From: Paecilomyces variotii
Taxonomy: Eukaryota
Assembly (NCBI GenBank): GCA_004022145.1
Contig: RCNU01000009.1
Direction: 5' to 3' (one strand)
DNA: 64,000 nucleotides
Shown: one piece after another, positions 1 to 5,937 of the stretch
Numbering within the stretch: position 1 is the stretch's first letter
Layout of the letters: each line of letters begins with the position of its first letter
Translations under genes and position numbers: made by a program
The notes under the pieces: model-generated
What the model was told of the DNA's origin: nothing
The model's input: the letters and a program-made list of their open reading frames with translations, nothing else
The model's database searches: none

Positions 1-550
1 CATACCCAGGAGAAGACCGATGTCATCCAGAACGAGAAACGAAACATGCGGTTGAGTCCGAATCTATGACCACGAGTATCTTGAGACTCTCGGTACCCTC
101 CACCCTCATCATGGAAAAGTACAATTAGTGATCGACAAAGAATACGATAAAGGCCCCGCGCATCTAAGTATTATGAGAGCCGTTAACTTGGGTATTCTGT
201 TTCAAGTATTTTCTCATTATCGAAGATATTCTTGGCCCGTCGACTACATTGTACGTGCAAGCCATAGTATGTAACTTCAATCTGTTCTGTTATGGACCGT
301 AAAACCCTGATACAGCTTCGGCAATACATCAAGTAGACAGTAGTATTAGTGGAGAGTGTCAACGACAGTCTATCGGATCAACATCCTTATCGGACGGATC
401 CAGCGGAGCCATGATGGTCTCTTCTCAACGCTATCACGGCTCACACCTAATCTGATAGTAAAACAAATAAGGTATTCCAGAAAACGCCATATCAAAAATG
501 AAATCAACAAAAGGAGATGGCTGTCGAAGCCTGTGTCAAGAGAACAAAAG

Positions 551-1980
551 TTAACGACCCGCTGCAGCTTGGTCGCATTCAGAAATGAATCTATATATCC
601 CCCCGAGACCTTCATGATCTGCGGATCGAGAACCTCCTGTGACGGACAACTCAGGAAAGAATCCCCTATCACCCAGTTCACTGATGTCGACGCTAGAATA
701 GCCAGACGGCGAGGTTGTCCAAGGGTTTGGCCCGAACATCTCAACGTCCTCGTAGTCCAGACCCGTTCCAGTGTGCGGTGAGTAGATCCACGAAGGATGT
801 GTCTTGCGTTCTGAAGACATCATGTCGCGCCAGTCGACTTCATGTGGAGTCTGCTGTCCGGGCGGGTCTCTCAGATTGAAGTAACCAGCCGCGGATGAAG
901 GTGCAACGCTGGGGGCAAATGGGAAGAGAAGAGCGAGATCAGCTGCGTTGCGGACCTCGAAGTCCTCATCTTGGATGATTCGGCCCCTCTCAACTCCCAC
1001 TTCATCACATAGTCGCTCCACTGTGTCCGCATCGCAACCCGGGAATCCCACTCGGATTGTGGATTTCCCTTGAAGAGAGATAGGCAAGTCTCCTAGTGCC
1101 GAGAGACGCTTCAGATCGTTCAGCACAGCAGCAAAATCCTTTAAAGCACGTGCGAAGTCGACGGACAGCAGCTCTAGAAGGCCCTCGGAGCTAAGAGTGT
1201 TTTGCTCAAAATCCTCAGCCGACACCTGCTTCTTTTGCAGTTCCCCCATGACACCGAAAGCGGTGATGGTAGGAGAAACTTCAAAGTCAATGTATGAGCC
1301 GGGACTCGCGCGTGGGATATCTGCCATGCGGCGTTCAGTCTGATCCTGGAGAGCAGTCACAGCCTTGTAACGCTTCTCGCCCGTACGAGGATCAATTCCA
1401 TCGAATCTGACCCTCTGACCGGACAAGAAGAAAGCACGTACTCCTTGCGAGACATTGTTGATGACCTGCGCGGGGTTCGCCGGCCCATGCGAGAAGTACC
1501 GGGCTCCTCCAACACGCCCGGCACCGATAGCATAGCCTCCCGCTGTCCGACCCAGAGTACCACCCGTCAGGTTAGGACGAAGAGTCGTCGCGAAGGGCGC
1601 TTGCGCAGTAAGGCGACTGACGGCAGAACCGACACGAGTGCTCTGGTAAGAAGGGGCGCTTCCACGGGCGGCAGCGGCATTGACAAGCTTGCCAGCTGCG
1701 TGTGTAGAGAAGTATCGGCCACGGGCCTGGCGGATAGCAGCGGCACGGCTGATGGGTTGCTTGGGGGTAATTCGAGCATAGGCTGGCTGCAATCGCAGCT
1801 GAGCCTGCTGGATCTGCTCAGGGAATTTCGATTTGAGGGCTCTATACGCCTTCTCGTAGGCAAACCTGCGGGAACTATGAGTCAGTAACTATGGTCAATG
1901 GCCGAAAGACGCAAGAGGGATACTGACCTGGCTGCCCGCCAAACCTTGGGGAGCAACAGGTGCCCACTTGATGGCGCCAT
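551..1980 (-). CDS. Conserved fungal protein, SPG5 (stationary phase protein 5)-like; 2 exons (1980-1928, 1865-551)
   Basis: ATG at 1980 (MAPSSGHLLLPKVWRAAR); GTCAGT..CAG intron 1927-1866 joins in frame to the 413-aa ORF. Motifs ARYFSHGP..AQVINNVSQGVRAFFLSG, GSYIDF and DLKRLSALGDLPI; family assignment from memory. Confidence 0.7.
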
Positions 1981-2424
1981 GCTGTTGATATCGAGATGGG
2001 TTTCTCGACAGAAGCGTTAGATGGAAGATGGAAAGACAAGATGGACGATGCCTGGTTCTTGAGGGGTGGTCTCCGCGCAGCTGATGTGGCGGTGCACCCC
2101 CGACTCCGAGTCAGCCGTTGCCACCCGCCGGTTGGTTTAAGTACTCAGTATGGTACTTACTGAAACTGAAACGGGAGGCTTATTCCCTCTAGTCTCTGAT
2201 ATCTCCCTAAAAAACCACGATCATAATTATTTTTATCCAATATGCTAATGTACTGCAAGAAAGAGCTATTGTCATGCGGAGGTGATGAAAGAAGTCTATT
2301 CATTGTCATCAAGTCTATGATGGAACATAACATAAGCCGCTCGTATGACCACTCTGGGTCTGTAGGTACCTAATTTAAGACAATTCGGGTATATGTTTCT
2401 ATGCGCGTGCCAGGTACTAGGCCT

Positions 2425-3502
2425 TTACTCGTCATCACCAAAGAAGACCTTGACAGGAAGCCAGTCGTCACCGCAGACCTTGAAACGGTCGGGCAGGTTG
2501 TCCAGCGCCTTGATCTCGTCCTCAGAGAGCTCCCAGCCGTCCAGCTCGAAGTTCTTCTCAATGCGCTCCTTGTTGACGGACTTGGGGATGACACTCCAGC
2601 CCTTCTGCAGACCCCACAGAAGCAGAACCTGCTGGGGAGTCTTGCCCTTCTTCTCCGCCAACGTCAGGAGGGTCTGGTCCTTGTACAAAGGCGAGTTGGT
2701 CGATCCCAAGCAAGAGTAACCTGTGCAGTGGATGCCCTTCTCCTTGTTATAGGCGACCAGCTTGGGCGATGGGTTATTGGGGTGCAGCTCAATCTGGTTG
2801 ACCGCAGGAACGATCTTGGTGCTCGGGTCGTTCAGGAGCTTCTCCAGGTTCTTGATTCCGAAGTTGGAGACACCGATGTTCTTGACCTTGCCGGTAGCAG
2901 GGAGCTTCTGCATCTCTTGCCTGTTCTAGTGTTAATGCCATGAAAATCTCCACGGGAAATAACAATTGGGACGTACCAGGTCTTGATGAAGTCCCAGTCA
3001 GGCAGGTGCTTCTTCTTGTCATTCGGGTCCGTGGAGCTGGGCCAGTGCACCAGGTAGAGATCGACATAATCAAGACCAAGGCTCTTGAGGGAGGAGTCAA
3101 TACCCTCCTGGACACGGTGGTGCCAGGTGTTGTCCAGCTTGGTGGTCACCCAGATCTCTTCGCGGGGAACACCCGACTCCTTGATACCCTCGCCAACCTC
3201 TGCTTCGTTGCCATAGGCAAGAGCGCTGCACACCCGCTTGTCAGCTTCTTTCACGGGACGCTCGAGTGTCCGGATCAGAGAATATTACTTACGTGTCAAT
3301 GTGACGGTATCCCTTGGCCAGCGCAGTCTTCACGGCCTCCTTGACCTCGTTGGGCTTGGACTGCCAGGTACCCAGACCAACGGCGGGGATCTTGGCGCCG
3401 GTGTTGAGGGTGAAAGTCAACCTGTACAAGATCTCGATAAGTTTCTGGCGCTTTGTTGATTATGTGCAGAGGTGCTTACTTGGTGTGATCGAGGGTCGAC
3501 AT
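2425..3502 (-). CDS. Aldo-keto reductase (Gcy1/Ypr1-like), 4 exons
   Basis: [57 protein letters not shown] and SVIPKS motifs across spliced ORFs. Confidence 0.92.
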
Positions 3503-4434
3503 CTTGCGTGTTTGGAGAGAGAAAAATCTATGTTCGAAGAACCTATGTTTGTAACACGAAGAGAATCGAGTGATACGGAGAGATGCTGGAAAGAAAGTCG
3601 AGCAAGACTGCGCCAGAAGGGAGCTTCCCCCCTCTATAAGGGAGGGGAAGCCAACACGAGCGAGAGTCCGCATTGGCGGGGAACGAGCAGCACAGCAACA
3701 ACGCGAGCGCCCGTATCGCAATCGTCAATGAGGGGCAATCCAGAGAGGGCAACGCGCCAGTCACTGCAGGTAATCGCTTTCCAACGCCCCTCCTGGTGGC
3801 TCCAGAAGGTGGGGGAAGGCCGTCCCATTTCTAGTCGGAGGATCAACCGTTTGCTGGTTAATATTCAAGCCGAATGGGCCCAATATCGGGTAAAAAGGGC
3901 ATAGCTGTTCACCCAAGCTTTCGACAGGGGAATTGGCCGATCAGACCCAGTAGAAAATGCTATGCTATCTGATTGCTCAATCAGGCACCGCATGTCTACC
4001 AGGGGCCATTGGGGATACCGGTTTCATTAGTGTCTCACCGGTTAAAAGGGAATACACAGACACCAGCGTGTATTATTCTATCTATCTATCTATCTACTCT
4101 AGTGGCAGAAAGAACCTTACCGGCGGGTTGAGCTGCCTTCGGTGATTTTGCAGATACGTCCAGTTTGACGTCACGTCACCGCCTGGCTAATTCTGCCGCG
4201 GCAAGCCACACACGAATCCGCTAAGACCGTCTACTTTCTCCGTGAAGTTCAGGCGCAATTCGTCTCTGTCTTAGTTAGATACGCCGCTGCCAGGGACGAG
4301 GCACTGCTTAGAAATTATCCTGGCCCGAGTTATATGCACTTGGTGACGGCGCACCCACCTGTCGCAACCGCACTAGAACCCATCCCACCAGGTCAGAACC
4401 GATCTGCCCCTACGGGTAAAATCAGCCTGCGAAG

Positions 4435-5411
4435 ATGTCTTCCGGCTTTGTATCCGCAGGGACCAACGAAGAGCCTGTGACTCGCGATGACGAATGGCTC
4501 CGGGCACAGCAGGAATTGGAGGAAGAGCGGAGACGGAAGGCGGAGATAGGAAAACAGAACGATGGGAAGAGTCTCTATGAAGTGCTGCAGCAGAACAAGA
4601 GTGAGTTGTGCTCAATAGCATTGTTTCTTCGCCTCCACTACTATGAATCATTGTAGTCAACAATAACAATTCGACGTGATGTTATCCATCCTTTCTTTCC
4701 TTTTCTTTTTCTTCGATGATGATGAATAAATGACACGGCCATGGAAGGAAAAACCGCACTTCTCCATGACCTCCGGCTAACATATCAGGGTGAAACCCTT
4801 GCCGTCATACAGTGGCCAAGCAAGAGGCCTTTGAAGAGTCGATTCGACTGAAGAACCAATTTCGATCTCTGGATGAGGATGAGGTCGAGTTTCTAGATTC
4901 GCTCCTCGAGTCGACGCGAGCCAAAGAGGCTGCGGTCAAGCAAGAGACCGCTGAGCAGCTGGAAGCATTCCACCGTCAGCGCCAAGAAGCCGATAAAGCC
5001 CTACTCGAAACAGCATCTGGAGAGACAGCCAATCCTGGGGCAGGATCCCCGGGCGAAGAGGAGCAATGGGCGATCTCCGGACGGAAAAGGAGGCGTGATA
5101 AGAAGAAGGAATCATTGATCCCAGGGAAAAGACGCAAGTCATCAGCGGCAGAAGAGGCGGAGGCTTCTGGCTCTACGGAGCGGAAAGCCAGCTCTGCGTC
5201 CGCCAAGGAAGATACCGAGAAGAATAAAGAGGGGTCAAAGTCATCGATATCACCATCGACGAACCAGTCACGGCCGGCAGCAGCCACTGTAACGGCACAA
5301 GGGCTCCCAGAAAAAGCTCAAACACCTTCGCAGCCCAGTCCTCCTGTGGCCAAAGCTGCTGCACCATTATCAGGGTTAATAGCCTATAGTTCCGACGAAG
5401 ATTCGTCATAA
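4435..5411 (+). CDS. FYV6: FYV6/FAM192A (PSME3IP1/NIP30) second-step splicing factor; exons 4435-4600, 4813-5411
   Basis: MSSGFVSAG...KSLYEVLQQNK-MAKQEAFEESIRLKNQFRSLDEDEVEFL signature; C-terminal GLIAYSSDED. Confidence 0.85.
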
Positions 5412-5937
5412 TCCGCGAAGGGACATGTCCGTCCGCAGCAATATGTATTTGTAGCATCCTCTGACTGACACTTCTTACATAATGCGTCTTGAGAGGATCA
5501 TTGCCAGATATTTATTTATACTGGTTGCATCTGAACAGACTCAAACGATGTTACTGGTAACATACATCGGTAGCCCGGTGCCATGAAGATTGACGTGACT
5601 GTCTTGATAAGACGGACCATATAATTTCAGTCCCACTCGAAGAGCTGTTCAGTCACCAGCCTGCTACATGGTTGAAACTACGAGTTGCTTTTGCCTTTAA
5701 TATCGGTATCAATTACAAGCTTAAAAAACAAGTCGCTTTATATTGTGTCATTCTGCGCCATCTTCAGTCGTTACACATAGGTAAAGAACTCCCATAAATC
5801 ATCATAGCTCAATATTAGTCACAATACAGCGTCTTGGGATAATCTCCCAGAAATCGTCATTATACGTAGAGATAGAGGCACTGGGCCAAAATCTCCAAGG
5901 TGGCTGAAATAAAAGAGATCACCCTCCTCCTCAAGCT

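What the first reader, a model, noticed from the sequence alone, without database searches (positions are those of the whole stretch)
4776..4812. FYV6 intron has a branch-proximal poison AG: candidate autoregulation by a 3'-splice-site selection factor
Seen: the branch point GCTAAC (A at 4780) is followed by CAG ending at 4788 (8 nt away) and CAG ending at 4812 (32 nt away). Exon 1 ends in phase 1. The proximal site yields AGG-TGA, an immediate stop, whereas the distal site yields the expected K-M-A-K-Q frame. The proximal AG lies in a small hairpin AGGGT-GAA-ACCCT (4787-4799). Established: yeast Fyv6 (FAM192A) promotes use of branch-distal 3' splice sites, and its loss activates proximal ones. 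Inference: productive FYV6 splicing may depend on Fyv6 itself, forming a feedback loop coupled to NMD and possibly tuned by RNA structure or temperature.
Basis: partly seen in the sequence, partly recalled or inferred. Interest (0 to 1): 0.78.

Follow-up and report, generated by a model that had tools for sequence, protein, structure and literature searches.

The report
Conserved decoy splice site in FYV6
The single intron of a mould's FYV6 gene, which encodes a factor that helps choose intron ends, has an early "poison" intron end just after its branch point; this layout is kept across at least four classes of fungi, so the gene's output probably depends on that choice.

Summary
The gene (4435-5411, +) is the FAM192A/Fyv6 orthologue of a Paecilomyces variotii-like fungus. 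Only the distal AG (4812) gives a continuous Pfam domain.

In this window alone, an AG 8 nt after CTAAC is not beyond chance. Comparison makes it significant:
- 60 of 66 distinct orthologous introns keep an AG 8-9 nt after the branch motif. They come from metagenome contigs assigned to Eurotiomycetes, Dothideomycetes, Leotiomycetes and probably Lecanoromycetes.
- The productive AG lies 17-34 nt from the branch motif (mode 28).
- Elsewhere the introns are unalignable.

In the 51 introns analysed in detail, proximal use always gives an early stop. The reading frame appears selected:
- All 8 inserts of in-frame length carry a stop.
- The distal site is TAG in 29/36 cases where it would be read as a codon, against 1/15 otherwise.

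One RNA contig joins 4600>4789, and two runs show the distal junction. Two orphan database proteins end exactly as predicted for proximal isoforms.

The distances straddle yeast's Fyv6 threshold (9-15 nt unaffected, >=21 nt dependent). Self-regulation is therefore plausible but untested, and by yeast logic it would be positive feedback. The hairpin is not supported. I found no paper describing this.

The parts
4435..4600 (+). FYV6/FAM192A exon 1 (55 codons plus 1 base, phase 1). It encodes the N-terminal GFVS 'hook' and the first helix.
   Evidence: ORF. Pfam PF10187 profile positions 1-50, E 2e-10. The hook motif is described in PMC11651659.
4601..4606 (+). 5' splice site GTGAGT
   Evidence: Sequence. 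Junctions from 4600 in RNA contigs.
4601..4812 (+). Single intron of 212 nt when the distal site is used (188 nt with the proximal site)
   Evidence: Joints 4600>4813 (run X1) and 4600>4789 (run X2), both GT..AG.
4776..4781 (+). Predicted branch-point motif GCTAAC (branch A at 4780). It is predicted, not mapped.
   Evidence: It is the CTRAY motif chosen by the rule in the last 60 nt. The homologous CTRAY is at 0.9-2.0 bits in 51 orthologues.
4786..4788 (+). Branch-proximal 3' splice site CAG (G is 8 nt from the branch A). This is the poison site.
   Evidence: Joint 4600>4789 in an X2 contig. AG at +8/+9 in 60/66 distinct orthologous introns.
4789..4812 (+). 24-nt segment kept in the mRNA if the proximal site is used. 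It carries the in-frame stop TGA at 4791-4793.
   Evidence: Sequence. All 8 orthologous inserts of in-frame length carry an in-frame stop.
4787..4799 (+). Small hairpin AGGGU-GAA-ACCCU covering the proximal AG. It is present but not supported as functional.
   Evidence: MFE -5.1 kcal/mol, z +0.69. No shared fold in 7 orthologues.
4810..4812 (+). Branch-distal, productive 3' splice site CAG (32 nt from the branch A)
   Evidence: Joint 4600>4813 in X1. The X9 loose end equals the start of exon 2. Pfam continuity.
4813..5411 (+). Exon 2 (second half of the Fyv6_N domain plus the C-terminal region), with stop TAA at 5409-5411

Best explanation
The FYV6 intron carries two competing 3' splice sites that are served by one branch point.

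The two sites:
- A consensus YAG lies 8 nt after the branch A. Using it keeps 24 nt of intron in the mRNA and stops translation at once (AGG-TGA). The product is an unproductive mRNA encoding only the 56-residue N-terminal fragment. That mRNA is probably removed by NMD because of its 3' UTR of more than 600 nt.
- A second YAG lies 32 nt from the branch. Using it gives full-length Fyv6.

What is shown:
- The layout is anciently conserved.
- The reading frame of the short isoform looks selected.
- Both junctions exist in RNA.

What is inferred:
- The choice is made at the second catalytic step, by branch-to-AG distance.
- It therefore reports the state of the second-step machinery, including Fyv6 itself. 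In yeast, Fyv6 is needed for sites 21 nt or more from the branch and is dispensable at 9-15 nt.
- On that logic Fyv6 promotes its own productive splicing. That is a positive, switch-like loop, not a homeostatic one.

Conservation:
- 80 metagenome loci encode orthologues.
- 51/55 distinct introns have an AG at +8 (47) or +9 (4) from the best CTRAY motif.
- 5/5 further introns have it, and 4 of 6 more have it by eye. The total is 60/66.
- Information content is 0.2 bits or less at -25..-6, 0.56-1.0 bits at +1..+6 and 1.6-1.7 bits at +7/+8.
- The background rate at other CTRAY motifs is 10.2%.

Taxa:
- The window is 99% identical to P. variotii (Eurotiomycetes).
- L019 and L031 are 84-87% identical to Cenococcum, and L074 is 92% identical to Friedmanniomyces (both Dothideomycetes).
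- L037 is 80% identical to Stipitochalara, and L027 is 73% identical to Lachnellula (Lachnellula's Leotiomycetes lineage was looked up; Stipitochalara's class is recalled).
- About 50% identity is the best hit to Lecanoromycetes for many other loci.

One branch point for both sites:
- Only 4/51 inserts hold a YTRAY motif.
- 5/51 inserts have no A at all before the final AG.

Poison character of the proximal site:
- Proximal use gives a stop in 51/51 introns, and in 43 of them the stop lies inside the insert.
- 8/8 inserts of in-frame length carry a stop. The shuffle probability is 0.15-0.40 for each, with a product of 1.1e-5.
- The distal site is TAG in 29/36 introns when it is in frame and in 1/15 otherwise, p 1.1e-6.
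- Within Leotiomycetes the same split is 8/8 against 0/4 (rows).

Use in RNA:
- An X2 contig joins 4600>4789. X1 joins 4600>4813. The X9 loose end equals the start of exon 2.
- Database proteins P0495 (...ANK-GVR-end) and P0426 (...ANK-GVL-end) match the predicted proximal tails of their nearest loci and do not match the read-through tails.

Distances:
- The branch-to-distal distance is 21 nt or more in 48/51 introns.
- In yeast, Fyv6 loss has no effect at 9-15 nt and a significant effect at 21 nt or more.
- In S. pombe about 90 of about 5250 introns have a spacing of 20 nt or more, and a branch-near site wins in competition.
Against: - The proximal junction in this species rests on one contig with a 26-letter anchor. 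That is below the tool's 31-letter rule, and contigs cannot give ratios.
- The branch point is predicted, not mapped. 15/51 inserts hold a loose NTNAY motif. L058, L063 and L066 have a strict branch motif 10 nt from the productive AG.
- 6/66 introns lack the proximal AG and 3 loci lack the intron, so the device is dispensable in some lineages.
- No data exist on Fyv6 function outside S. cerevisiae. Other factors also promote branch-distant sites in intron-rich fungi, namely Sde2, Cactin and Tls1.
- The predicted feedback is positive, which is unusual for a constitutive factor.
- The statistics are not corrected for shared ancestry.
- P0495 and P0426 have no DNA or names behind them.
Confidence: 0.55

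Rival explanations
1. The two-site switch is real, but it is read by other parts of the second-step machinery or by general splicing kinetics, not by Fyv6 levels. Candidates are Slu7, Prp18, Prp22, Sde2/Cactin/Tls1, or a protein binding the G-rich block after the proximal AG. FYV6 would then be a target and not its own regulator.
For: In S. pombe, branch-distant sites depend on Sde2, Cay1 and Tls1. In human cells, several C* proteins shift alternative 3' site choice. Positions +9..+12 after the branch A are moderately conserved and G-rich, for example GGGGTGC in the Leotiomycete and Dothideomycete loci.
Against: The device sits in the gene of the one factor whose known role is to discriminate sites by branch distance. 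Its two distances straddle that factor's yeast threshold. No other gene was surveyed here, so specificity to FYV6 is not shown either way.
Confidence: 0.25
2. The +8 AG is an assembly signal. SF1/U2AF would recognise a branch-near AG before the first step, and the AG would then be skipped because it lies too close to the branch. Proximal junctions would be rare noise.
For: The spacing is fixed at 8 nt in 47 of 55 introns. Productive sites are sometimes weak, AAG or GAG in 7/51, so they might need help in early recognition.
Against: Selection acts on the reading frame of the proximal isoform: 8/8 in-frame stops, and TAG coupled to phase at 29/36 against 1/15. A proximal junction occurs in a contig. 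Two proteins end as proximal isoforms would. Other ascomycetes routinely use an AG only 2-8 nt after the branch motif.
Confidence: 0.1
3. There are two branch points. The strong CTRAY motif serves only the proximal AG, and a weak downstream branch serves the productive AG. The choice would then be made at branch selection, before the first step.
For: L058, L063 and L066 have a strict branch motif 10 nt from the productive AG. The Leotiomycete inserts share TTGAAY 9-10 nt before the productive AG (rows). 15/51 inserts hold an NTNAY motif.
Against: Only 4/51 inserts have a YTRAY motif. 5/51 have no A at all before the final AG; L021, for example, is a pure pyrimidine/G tract. In the window the only candidate (GTCAT) would put the branch 5 nt from the AG.
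Confidence: 0.08
4. A chance AG with no function.
For: In a single sequence, AG at +7/+8 follows 10.2% of CTRAY motifs.
Against: The AG is present in 60/66 distinct orthologous introns across at least three confidently assigned classes, while the rest of the intron is unalignable.
Confidence: 0.02

Closest known systems
Branch-proximal alternative 3' splice sites activated in S. cerevisiae fyv6-delta, e.g. SUS1 intron 1 (PMC11651659; passages and section 6 read)
   Same: An AG between the branch and the normal 3' site competes with a distal site 21 nt or more away. Many of the resulting isoforms are NMD substrates.
   Different: The yeast sites are mostly non-consensus and cryptic and lie in other genes. 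Here the proximal site is a consensus YAG at a fixed +8, is conserved across classes, and sits in the FYV6 gene itself. S. cerevisiae FYV6 has no intron (recalled, not checked here).
Autoregulatory unproductive splicing of splicing-factor genes (poison exons or sites coupled to NMD, e.g. SR proteins; recalled, no paper read here)
   Same: A conserved alternative splice choice in a splicing-factor gene gives a premature stop.
   Different: The known cases act at splice-site recognition and are negative loops. Here the choice would be made at exon ligation by branch distance, and the predicted sign is positive.
Drosophila Sxl positive autoregulation, with two AGs and SPF45 acting at the second step (recalled, no paper read here)
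   Same: A positive splicing loop, with two nearby AGs distinguished after the first step.
   Different: In Sxl a dedicated RNA-binding regulator acts. Here a core second-step factor is the candidate regulator, and the proteins are unrelated.
S. pombe introns with branch-distant 3' sites, e.g. rap1 intron 2, which need Sde2/Cay1/Tls1 (PMC9508853; passages read)
   Same: A rare class of intron in an intron-rich fungus whose productive AG lies 20 nt or more from the branch. A branch-near AG wins when it competes.
   Different: Those introns have no conserved poison AG, and they are not in the genes of the factors that act on them.
Structure-controlled 3' site choice, the yeast APE2 'thermosensor' (recalled)
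   Same: An AG between the branch and the 3' site lies within a possible stem.
   Different: The stem here is no better than shuffles and is not conserved.

Membership tests
FAM192A/Fyv6 protein family (PF10187) | Pfam FAM192A_Fyv6_N domain above the curated cut-off | tested here: met
   Exon 1 scores 41.2 bits and exon 2 scores 63.1 bits, against a cut-off of 20.2. The profile positions are contiguous, 1-50 and 52-104.
FAM192A/Fyv6 protein family (PF10187) | N-terminal FVS(E) hook motif that binds Prp22 in yeast | tested here: met
   The window protein starts MSSGFVSAGT. The motif is described in PMC11651659. Binding itself was not tested.
Unproductive-splicing (AS-NMD) autoregulation of a splicing factor | An alternative splice choice introduces a premature stop | tested here: met
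   AGG-TGA in the window. A stop in 51/51 orthologues analysed.
Unproductive-splicing (AS-NMD) autoregulation of a splicing factor | The alternative junction exists in RNA | tested here: met
   One X2 contig joins 4600>4789, with a 26-letter anchor. The tails of P0495 and P0426 give indirect support. The evidence is thin.
Unproductive-splicing (AS-NMD) autoregulation of a splicing factor | The unproductive isoform is stabilised when NMD is off | not testable with these tools
   This needs a upf1/nmdA mutant or a translation block.
Unproductive-splicing (AS-NMD) autoregulation of a splicing factor | The isoform ratio responds to the level of the encoded protein | not testable with these tools
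   This needs Fyv6 depletion or over-expression.
Fyv6-dependent (branch-distal) 3' splice sites as defined in yeast | Productive AG 21 nt or more from the branch, and the competitor within 20 nt | tested here: met
   32 nt and 8 nt in the window. The distal distance is 21 nt or more in 48/51 orthologues, and the proximal is 8-9 nt in 51/51. The branch point is predicted only.
RNA-structure or thermosensor control of 3' site choice | A stable, conserved structure between the branch and the 3' site that masks the AG | tested here: not met
   z +0.69 in the window and -0.68 to +1.67 in 7 orthologues, with no common fold. The CTRAC...GTYAG near-palindrome shows many A·C mismatches, by my reading of the rows.
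Stwintron or recursive splicing | A second complete intron (donor, branch, acceptor) nested in or abutting the first | tested here: not met
   The segment between the two AGs is only 9-26 nt, and only 4/51 hold a YTRAY motif.

The most novel reading that the evidence does not exclude
The intron is an ancient molecular ruler by which one gene makes two products.
- Full-length Fyv6 comes from the distal site.
- The proximal site gives a conserved peptide of about 56-62 residues, the 'hook plus helix 1', whose stop codon is itself under selection.
- In yeast the hook binds the Prp22 helicase, while the part that anchors Fyv6 to Syf1 is missing from this peptide. The short product could therefore compete with Fyv6 at Prp22.
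- That competition would turn an otherwise runaway positive loop into a self-limiting one.
- This would be the first autoregulation of a core splicing factor exerted at exon ligation.
Probability: 0.12. Interest if true: 0.9.

Novelty: new variant of a known kind. Interest (0 to 1): 0.8.

Why it matters

A natural, deeply conserved intron places a Fyv6-independent poison site (8 nt) against a Fyv6-dependent productive site (about 28-32 nt) inside FYV6 itself. It would give:
- a ready-made in vivo reporter of second-step site choice;
- evidence that discrimination by branch distance is physiologically used, not only a mutant phenotype;
- possibly the first regulatory loop acting at exon ligation.

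It also warns gene annotators: several database models of this gene have odd junctions at this site.

Tried and rejected
- **Own genome:** none is held for this window, so no genome-wide intron background could be made.
- **ORF-joining intron set in the window:** this gave 20 candidates at 13 donors. They were too few and too ambiguous to serve as a background for branch-AG distances, so I dropped it.
- **Run X6:** nothing was laid. This is no evidence either way.
- **Hairpin 4787-4799 as a regulator:** not better than shuffles and not conserved.
- **Mini-hairpin from the CTRAC-NNNN-GTYAG near-palindrome:** the third stem pair is often A·C, as in the window, L010, L011, L024, L025, L028 and L030 (rows). 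The pairing follows from the CT/AG consensus itself, so I rejected it.
- **Recursive splicing or a nested intron:** the segment is too short.
- **Rfam:** no family matches 4400-5000 at E<=1, so there is no hosted snoRNA.
- **Earlier scan notes:** nothing on this genome or this protein.
- **Peptide 'imprint' of the motif in read-through ORFs:** 30 of 94 tails of 10 residues or more show it. My patterns were loose and there was no null, so this is only a hint of wider spread.
- **Proteins P0467 (tail D) and P0370 (tail GALEFVA):** these may be proximal isoforms or truncated calls. They are undecidable without DNA.
- **Literature:** Fyv6 + autoregulat (3 papers), FAM192A + alternative splicing + nonsense-mediated (8 papers), NIP30 + intron (2 papers), and second step + splicing factor + own pre-mRNA + branch point (8 papers). 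By their titles and abstract starts, none appears to describe this intron. Of these hits I opened only PMC11585973, for its Fyv6 passages.

Full report
**1. What is there**

On the + strand an ORF starts at ATG 4435 and meets GTGAGT at 4601. A second frame runs from 4813 to TAA 5409-5411.
- Pfam PF10187 (FAM192A/Fyv6 N-terminal domain) matches the first piece at profile positions 1-50. It matches the second piece, from 4815, at positions 52-104.
- The split codon A4600+TG is therefore profile position 51, and only the AG at 4811-4812 gives a continuous domain.
- The best database relative is a 254-aa protein named Paecilomyces variotii, 99% identical over exon 2. The lineage is Eurotiales.
  - GCTAAC 4776-4781 with the branch A at 4780;
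  - CAG ending at 4788 (8 nt);
  - CAG ending at 4812 (32 nt);
  - phase 1;
  - proximal joining gives AGG-TGA.

**2. RNA evidence**

I laid four coded runs on 4300-5500. All of them are assembled contigs, so they show presence only, not ratios.
- X1: one contig joins 4600>4813 (GT..AG, 255 letters on the shorter side).
- X9 (another species label): a contig ends at 4600 and runs on for 16 letters that equal the start of exon 2.
- X2 (same species label as X1, a strain with a few SNPs): a 773-nt contig joins 4600>4789 (GT..AG). This is the proximal junction.
  - The anchor is 26 letters at the contig end. That is under the tool's 31-letter rule, but it is an exact match at the exact exon end.
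- X2 also has a contig that runs unspliced from exon 1 to 4683.
- X6 gave nothing.

Both junctions therefore exist in RNA. The proximal one rests on a single contig.

**3. Conservation**

*Loci.* A profile of 26 homologues retrieved 80 fungal loci from metagenome contigs.
- Exon 1 was found in 79 of the 80.
- Both exon ends were placed by tblastn in 68 loci plus the window. Three of the loci (L048, L071, L080) have no intron at this site. That is either intron loss or cDNA-derived contigs; I cannot tell which.
- The other 66 sources (65 loci plus the window) give 55 distinct intron sequences, all at the same phase-1 position.

*Branch rule.* I took the most 3' CTRAY motif in the last 60 nt as the branch. 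For L052 I set it by hand to CTAAA.

*Counts.*
- 51 of the 55 have an AG 8 nt (47) or 9 nt (4) after the branch A, upstream of the productive AG.
- Five more distinct introns, parsed only by pattern, all have it.
- Of the last seven loci, read by eye, L035, L039, L043 and L075 have it. L055 and L061/L062 do not.
- The total is 60 of 66 distinct introns.
- The exceptions are L006, L055, L058, L061/62, L063 and L066.

*Profile and background.*
- Anchored on the branch A, information content is 0.2 bits or less from -25 to -6, 0.9-2.0 bits in the branch motif, 0.56-1.0 bits at +1..+6 and 1.6-1.7 bits at +7/+8.
- Intron lengths range from 64 to 219 nt. The 5' parts cannot be aligned.
- Elsewhere in the same loci only 118 of 1157 CTRAY motifs (10.2%) are followed by AG at +7/+8.

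*Motif families* (rows):
- CTRAC-ATGT-YAG;
- CTGAT-CACG-YAG-GGGTGC;
- CTGAC-GAGT-CAG-GGGTGC;
- CTGAC-CGGGG-TAG.

What they share is the spacing and the YAG, not the spacer letters.

**4. Taxonomic span**

Nearest named proteins (lineages):
- The window is 99% identical to P. variotii (Eurotiomycetes).
- L019 and L031 are 84-87% identical to Cenococcum, and L074 is 92% identical to Friedmanniomyces (both Dothideomycetes).
- L037 is 80% identical to Stipitochalara, and L027 is 73% identical to Lachnellula. Lachnellula is Leotiomycetes by look-up; the class label for Stipitochalara is recalled.
- About twenty loci are closest, at only about 50%, to Lecanoromycetes. That assignment is weak.

Three classes are therefore firm and a fourth is likely.

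**5. One branch, two AGs**

Between the two AGs, only 4 of 51 inserts hold a YTRAY motif and 15 hold a loose NTNAY. Five have no A at all before the final AG. For most orthologues the productive AG must be reached from the upstream branch, past the proximal YAG.
- The branch-to-productive distance is 17-34 nt, with mode 28 (26 of 51), and is 21 nt or more in 48 of 51.
- The proximal triplet is CAG in 25, TAG in 25 and AAG in 1.
- The productive triplet is TAG in 30, CAG in 14, AAG in 6 and GAG in 1. The productive site is therefore often the weaker one.

**6. The short isoform's reading frame looks selected**

- Proximal use gives a stop in 51 of 51 introns, after 1-27 codons. In 43 of them the stop lies inside the retained segment.
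- Eight inserts have a length divisible by three and could have given an in-frame insertion. All eight carry an in-frame stop. The shuffle probability is 0.15-0.40 each, with a product of 1.1e-5. The window and L001 share the stop and may not be independent.
- When the insert length is 2 mod 3, the last intron triplet is read as a codon. It is TAG in 29 of those 36 introns, against 1 of 15 otherwise (Fisher p 1.1e-6, uncorrected for ancestry).
- Within the Leotiomycete loci alone the split is 8 of 8 against 0 of 4 (rows).
- Such coupling is expected only if the proximal mRNA is made and translated often enough to matter.

**7. Independent hint from protein databases**

A search with the exon-1 peptide against 1.84 billion representatives gave 242 hits, of which 150 were listed.
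- Most of the short hits are read-through ORFs. Their tails start G or S, from the x+GT codon.
- Two hits end exactly as the predicted proximal isoforms of their nearest loci would:
  - P0495 ends ...ANK-GVR. Its nearest locus is L027, at 89% in exon 1.
  - P0426 ends ...ANK-GVL. Its nearest locus is L049, at 85%.
- Read-through of those loci would give other tails.
- None of the 12 Leotiomycete loci has the GTGT donor that read-through would need to give G-V.
- Both proteins come from contigs of about 1.0 kb in JGI/IMG, and one of them also from Logan. That size fits an mRNA, but I could not see the DNA.

**8. Structure**

- Seven orthologues give z values from -0.68 to +1.67 and no shared fold.
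- The near-palindrome CTRAC...GTYAG follows from the consensus letters, and its third pair is often A·C.
- No Rfam family matches.

**9. Link to Fyv6**

In S. cerevisiae (PMC11651659; passages and section 6 read):
- Loss of Fyv6 activates branch-proximal sites transcriptome-wide.
- Many of the products are NMD substrates.
- In reporters, exon ligation is unaffected at 9-15 nt and falls significantly at 21 nt or more.

The FYV6 intron's two distances (8-9 nt, and mostly 21 nt or more) straddle that threshold.

In S. pombe (PMC9508853, passages):
- Only about 90 of about 5250 introns have spacings of 20 nt or more.
- A branch-near site wins in direct competition.

Other ascomycetes routinely use an AG only 2-8 nt beyond the branch motif (PMC2483917, passages). 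An AG at +8 is therefore usable in fungi.

That Fyv6 sets the ratio on its own intron is an inference. By the yeast data the loop would be positive: more Fyv6 gives more productive mRNA. The exon-1 peptide contains the GFVS hook that binds Prp22 in yeast, but it lacks the Syf1-binding part that is essential there.

**10. Verdict**

- The poison-site reading is strongly supported by comparison and thinly supported by RNA.
- Autoregulation by Fyv6 is plausible and directly testable, but it is not shown.
- The hairpin idea is not supported.
- Four searches of the held library returned no paper whose title or abstract start points to this intron.

Noticed in passing
L001-L080, first six intron bases; window 4601-4606: The 5' splice site of this intron usually lacks the consensus G at +5. 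Only 13 of 55 distinct introns have G there, 31 have C, and GTGACT occurs 17 times. In a Fusarium intron set G at +5 is 93% (PMC5677156 Table 1). The window itself has the consensus GTGAGT. A weak donor may be part of the same regulatory design.
   Followed up: partly
L018, L032, L034, L051, L057, L074, L078 (also L035, L039, L054, L060, L075 by eye): The productive 3' site is a non-consensus AAG or GAG in 7 of 51 analysed introns, whereas the poison site is YAG in 50 of 51. The site the gene needs is thus sometimes the weaker one.
   Followed up: partly
window 4778-5087 (run X9): A contig of run X9 starts at 4778, 2 nt before the predicted branch A, and runs unspliced into exon 2. It could derive from lariat intermediates, or its start could be chance.
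   Followed up: no
window 4303-4683 (run X2): A contig runs from exon 1 into the intron at a depth (11) similar to that of the exon contig (13.7). It carries three intron SNPs at 4635, 4646 and 4649. This looks like intron retention in the same run that shows the proximal junction.
   Followed up: no
positions +9 to +12 after the branch A in the orthologues, e.g. L026, L027, L037, L074: A G-rich block follows the proximal AG, often GGGGTGC. It is shared by the Leotiomycete and Dothideomycete loci at 0.3-0.75 bits. The Leotiomycete inserts also share TTGAAY 9-10 nt before the productive AG. It could be a protein site or a weak second branch.
   Followed up: no
L035, L043, L075: In these loci a second intron starts directly after the codons for AKQEAFEE (GAG|GTAGGG, GAG|GTATGT, GAG|GTGAGT). 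The 24-nt stretch after the productive AG is therefore a micro-exon.
   Followed up: no
window 4601-4812, esp. 4684-4725: The window's intron is 212 nt against a median of 83 nt in the orthologues. It holds a T/C-rich low-complexity stretch that read laying skipped as a repeat.
   Followed up: no
database proteins P0056, P0242, P0297 and others: 19 of the 126 database proteins examined that carry an exon-1-length N-terminus (40 or more residues before the AKQ motif) were flagged as not matching my NK-x pattern before AKQ. The first 9 listed, however, read ...ERNK-M-AKQEAFEE, which is the canonical junction missed by my pattern. About 10 have genuinely odd junctions, for example extra residues. 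Gene callers are probably misled by the two AGs.
   Followed up: no
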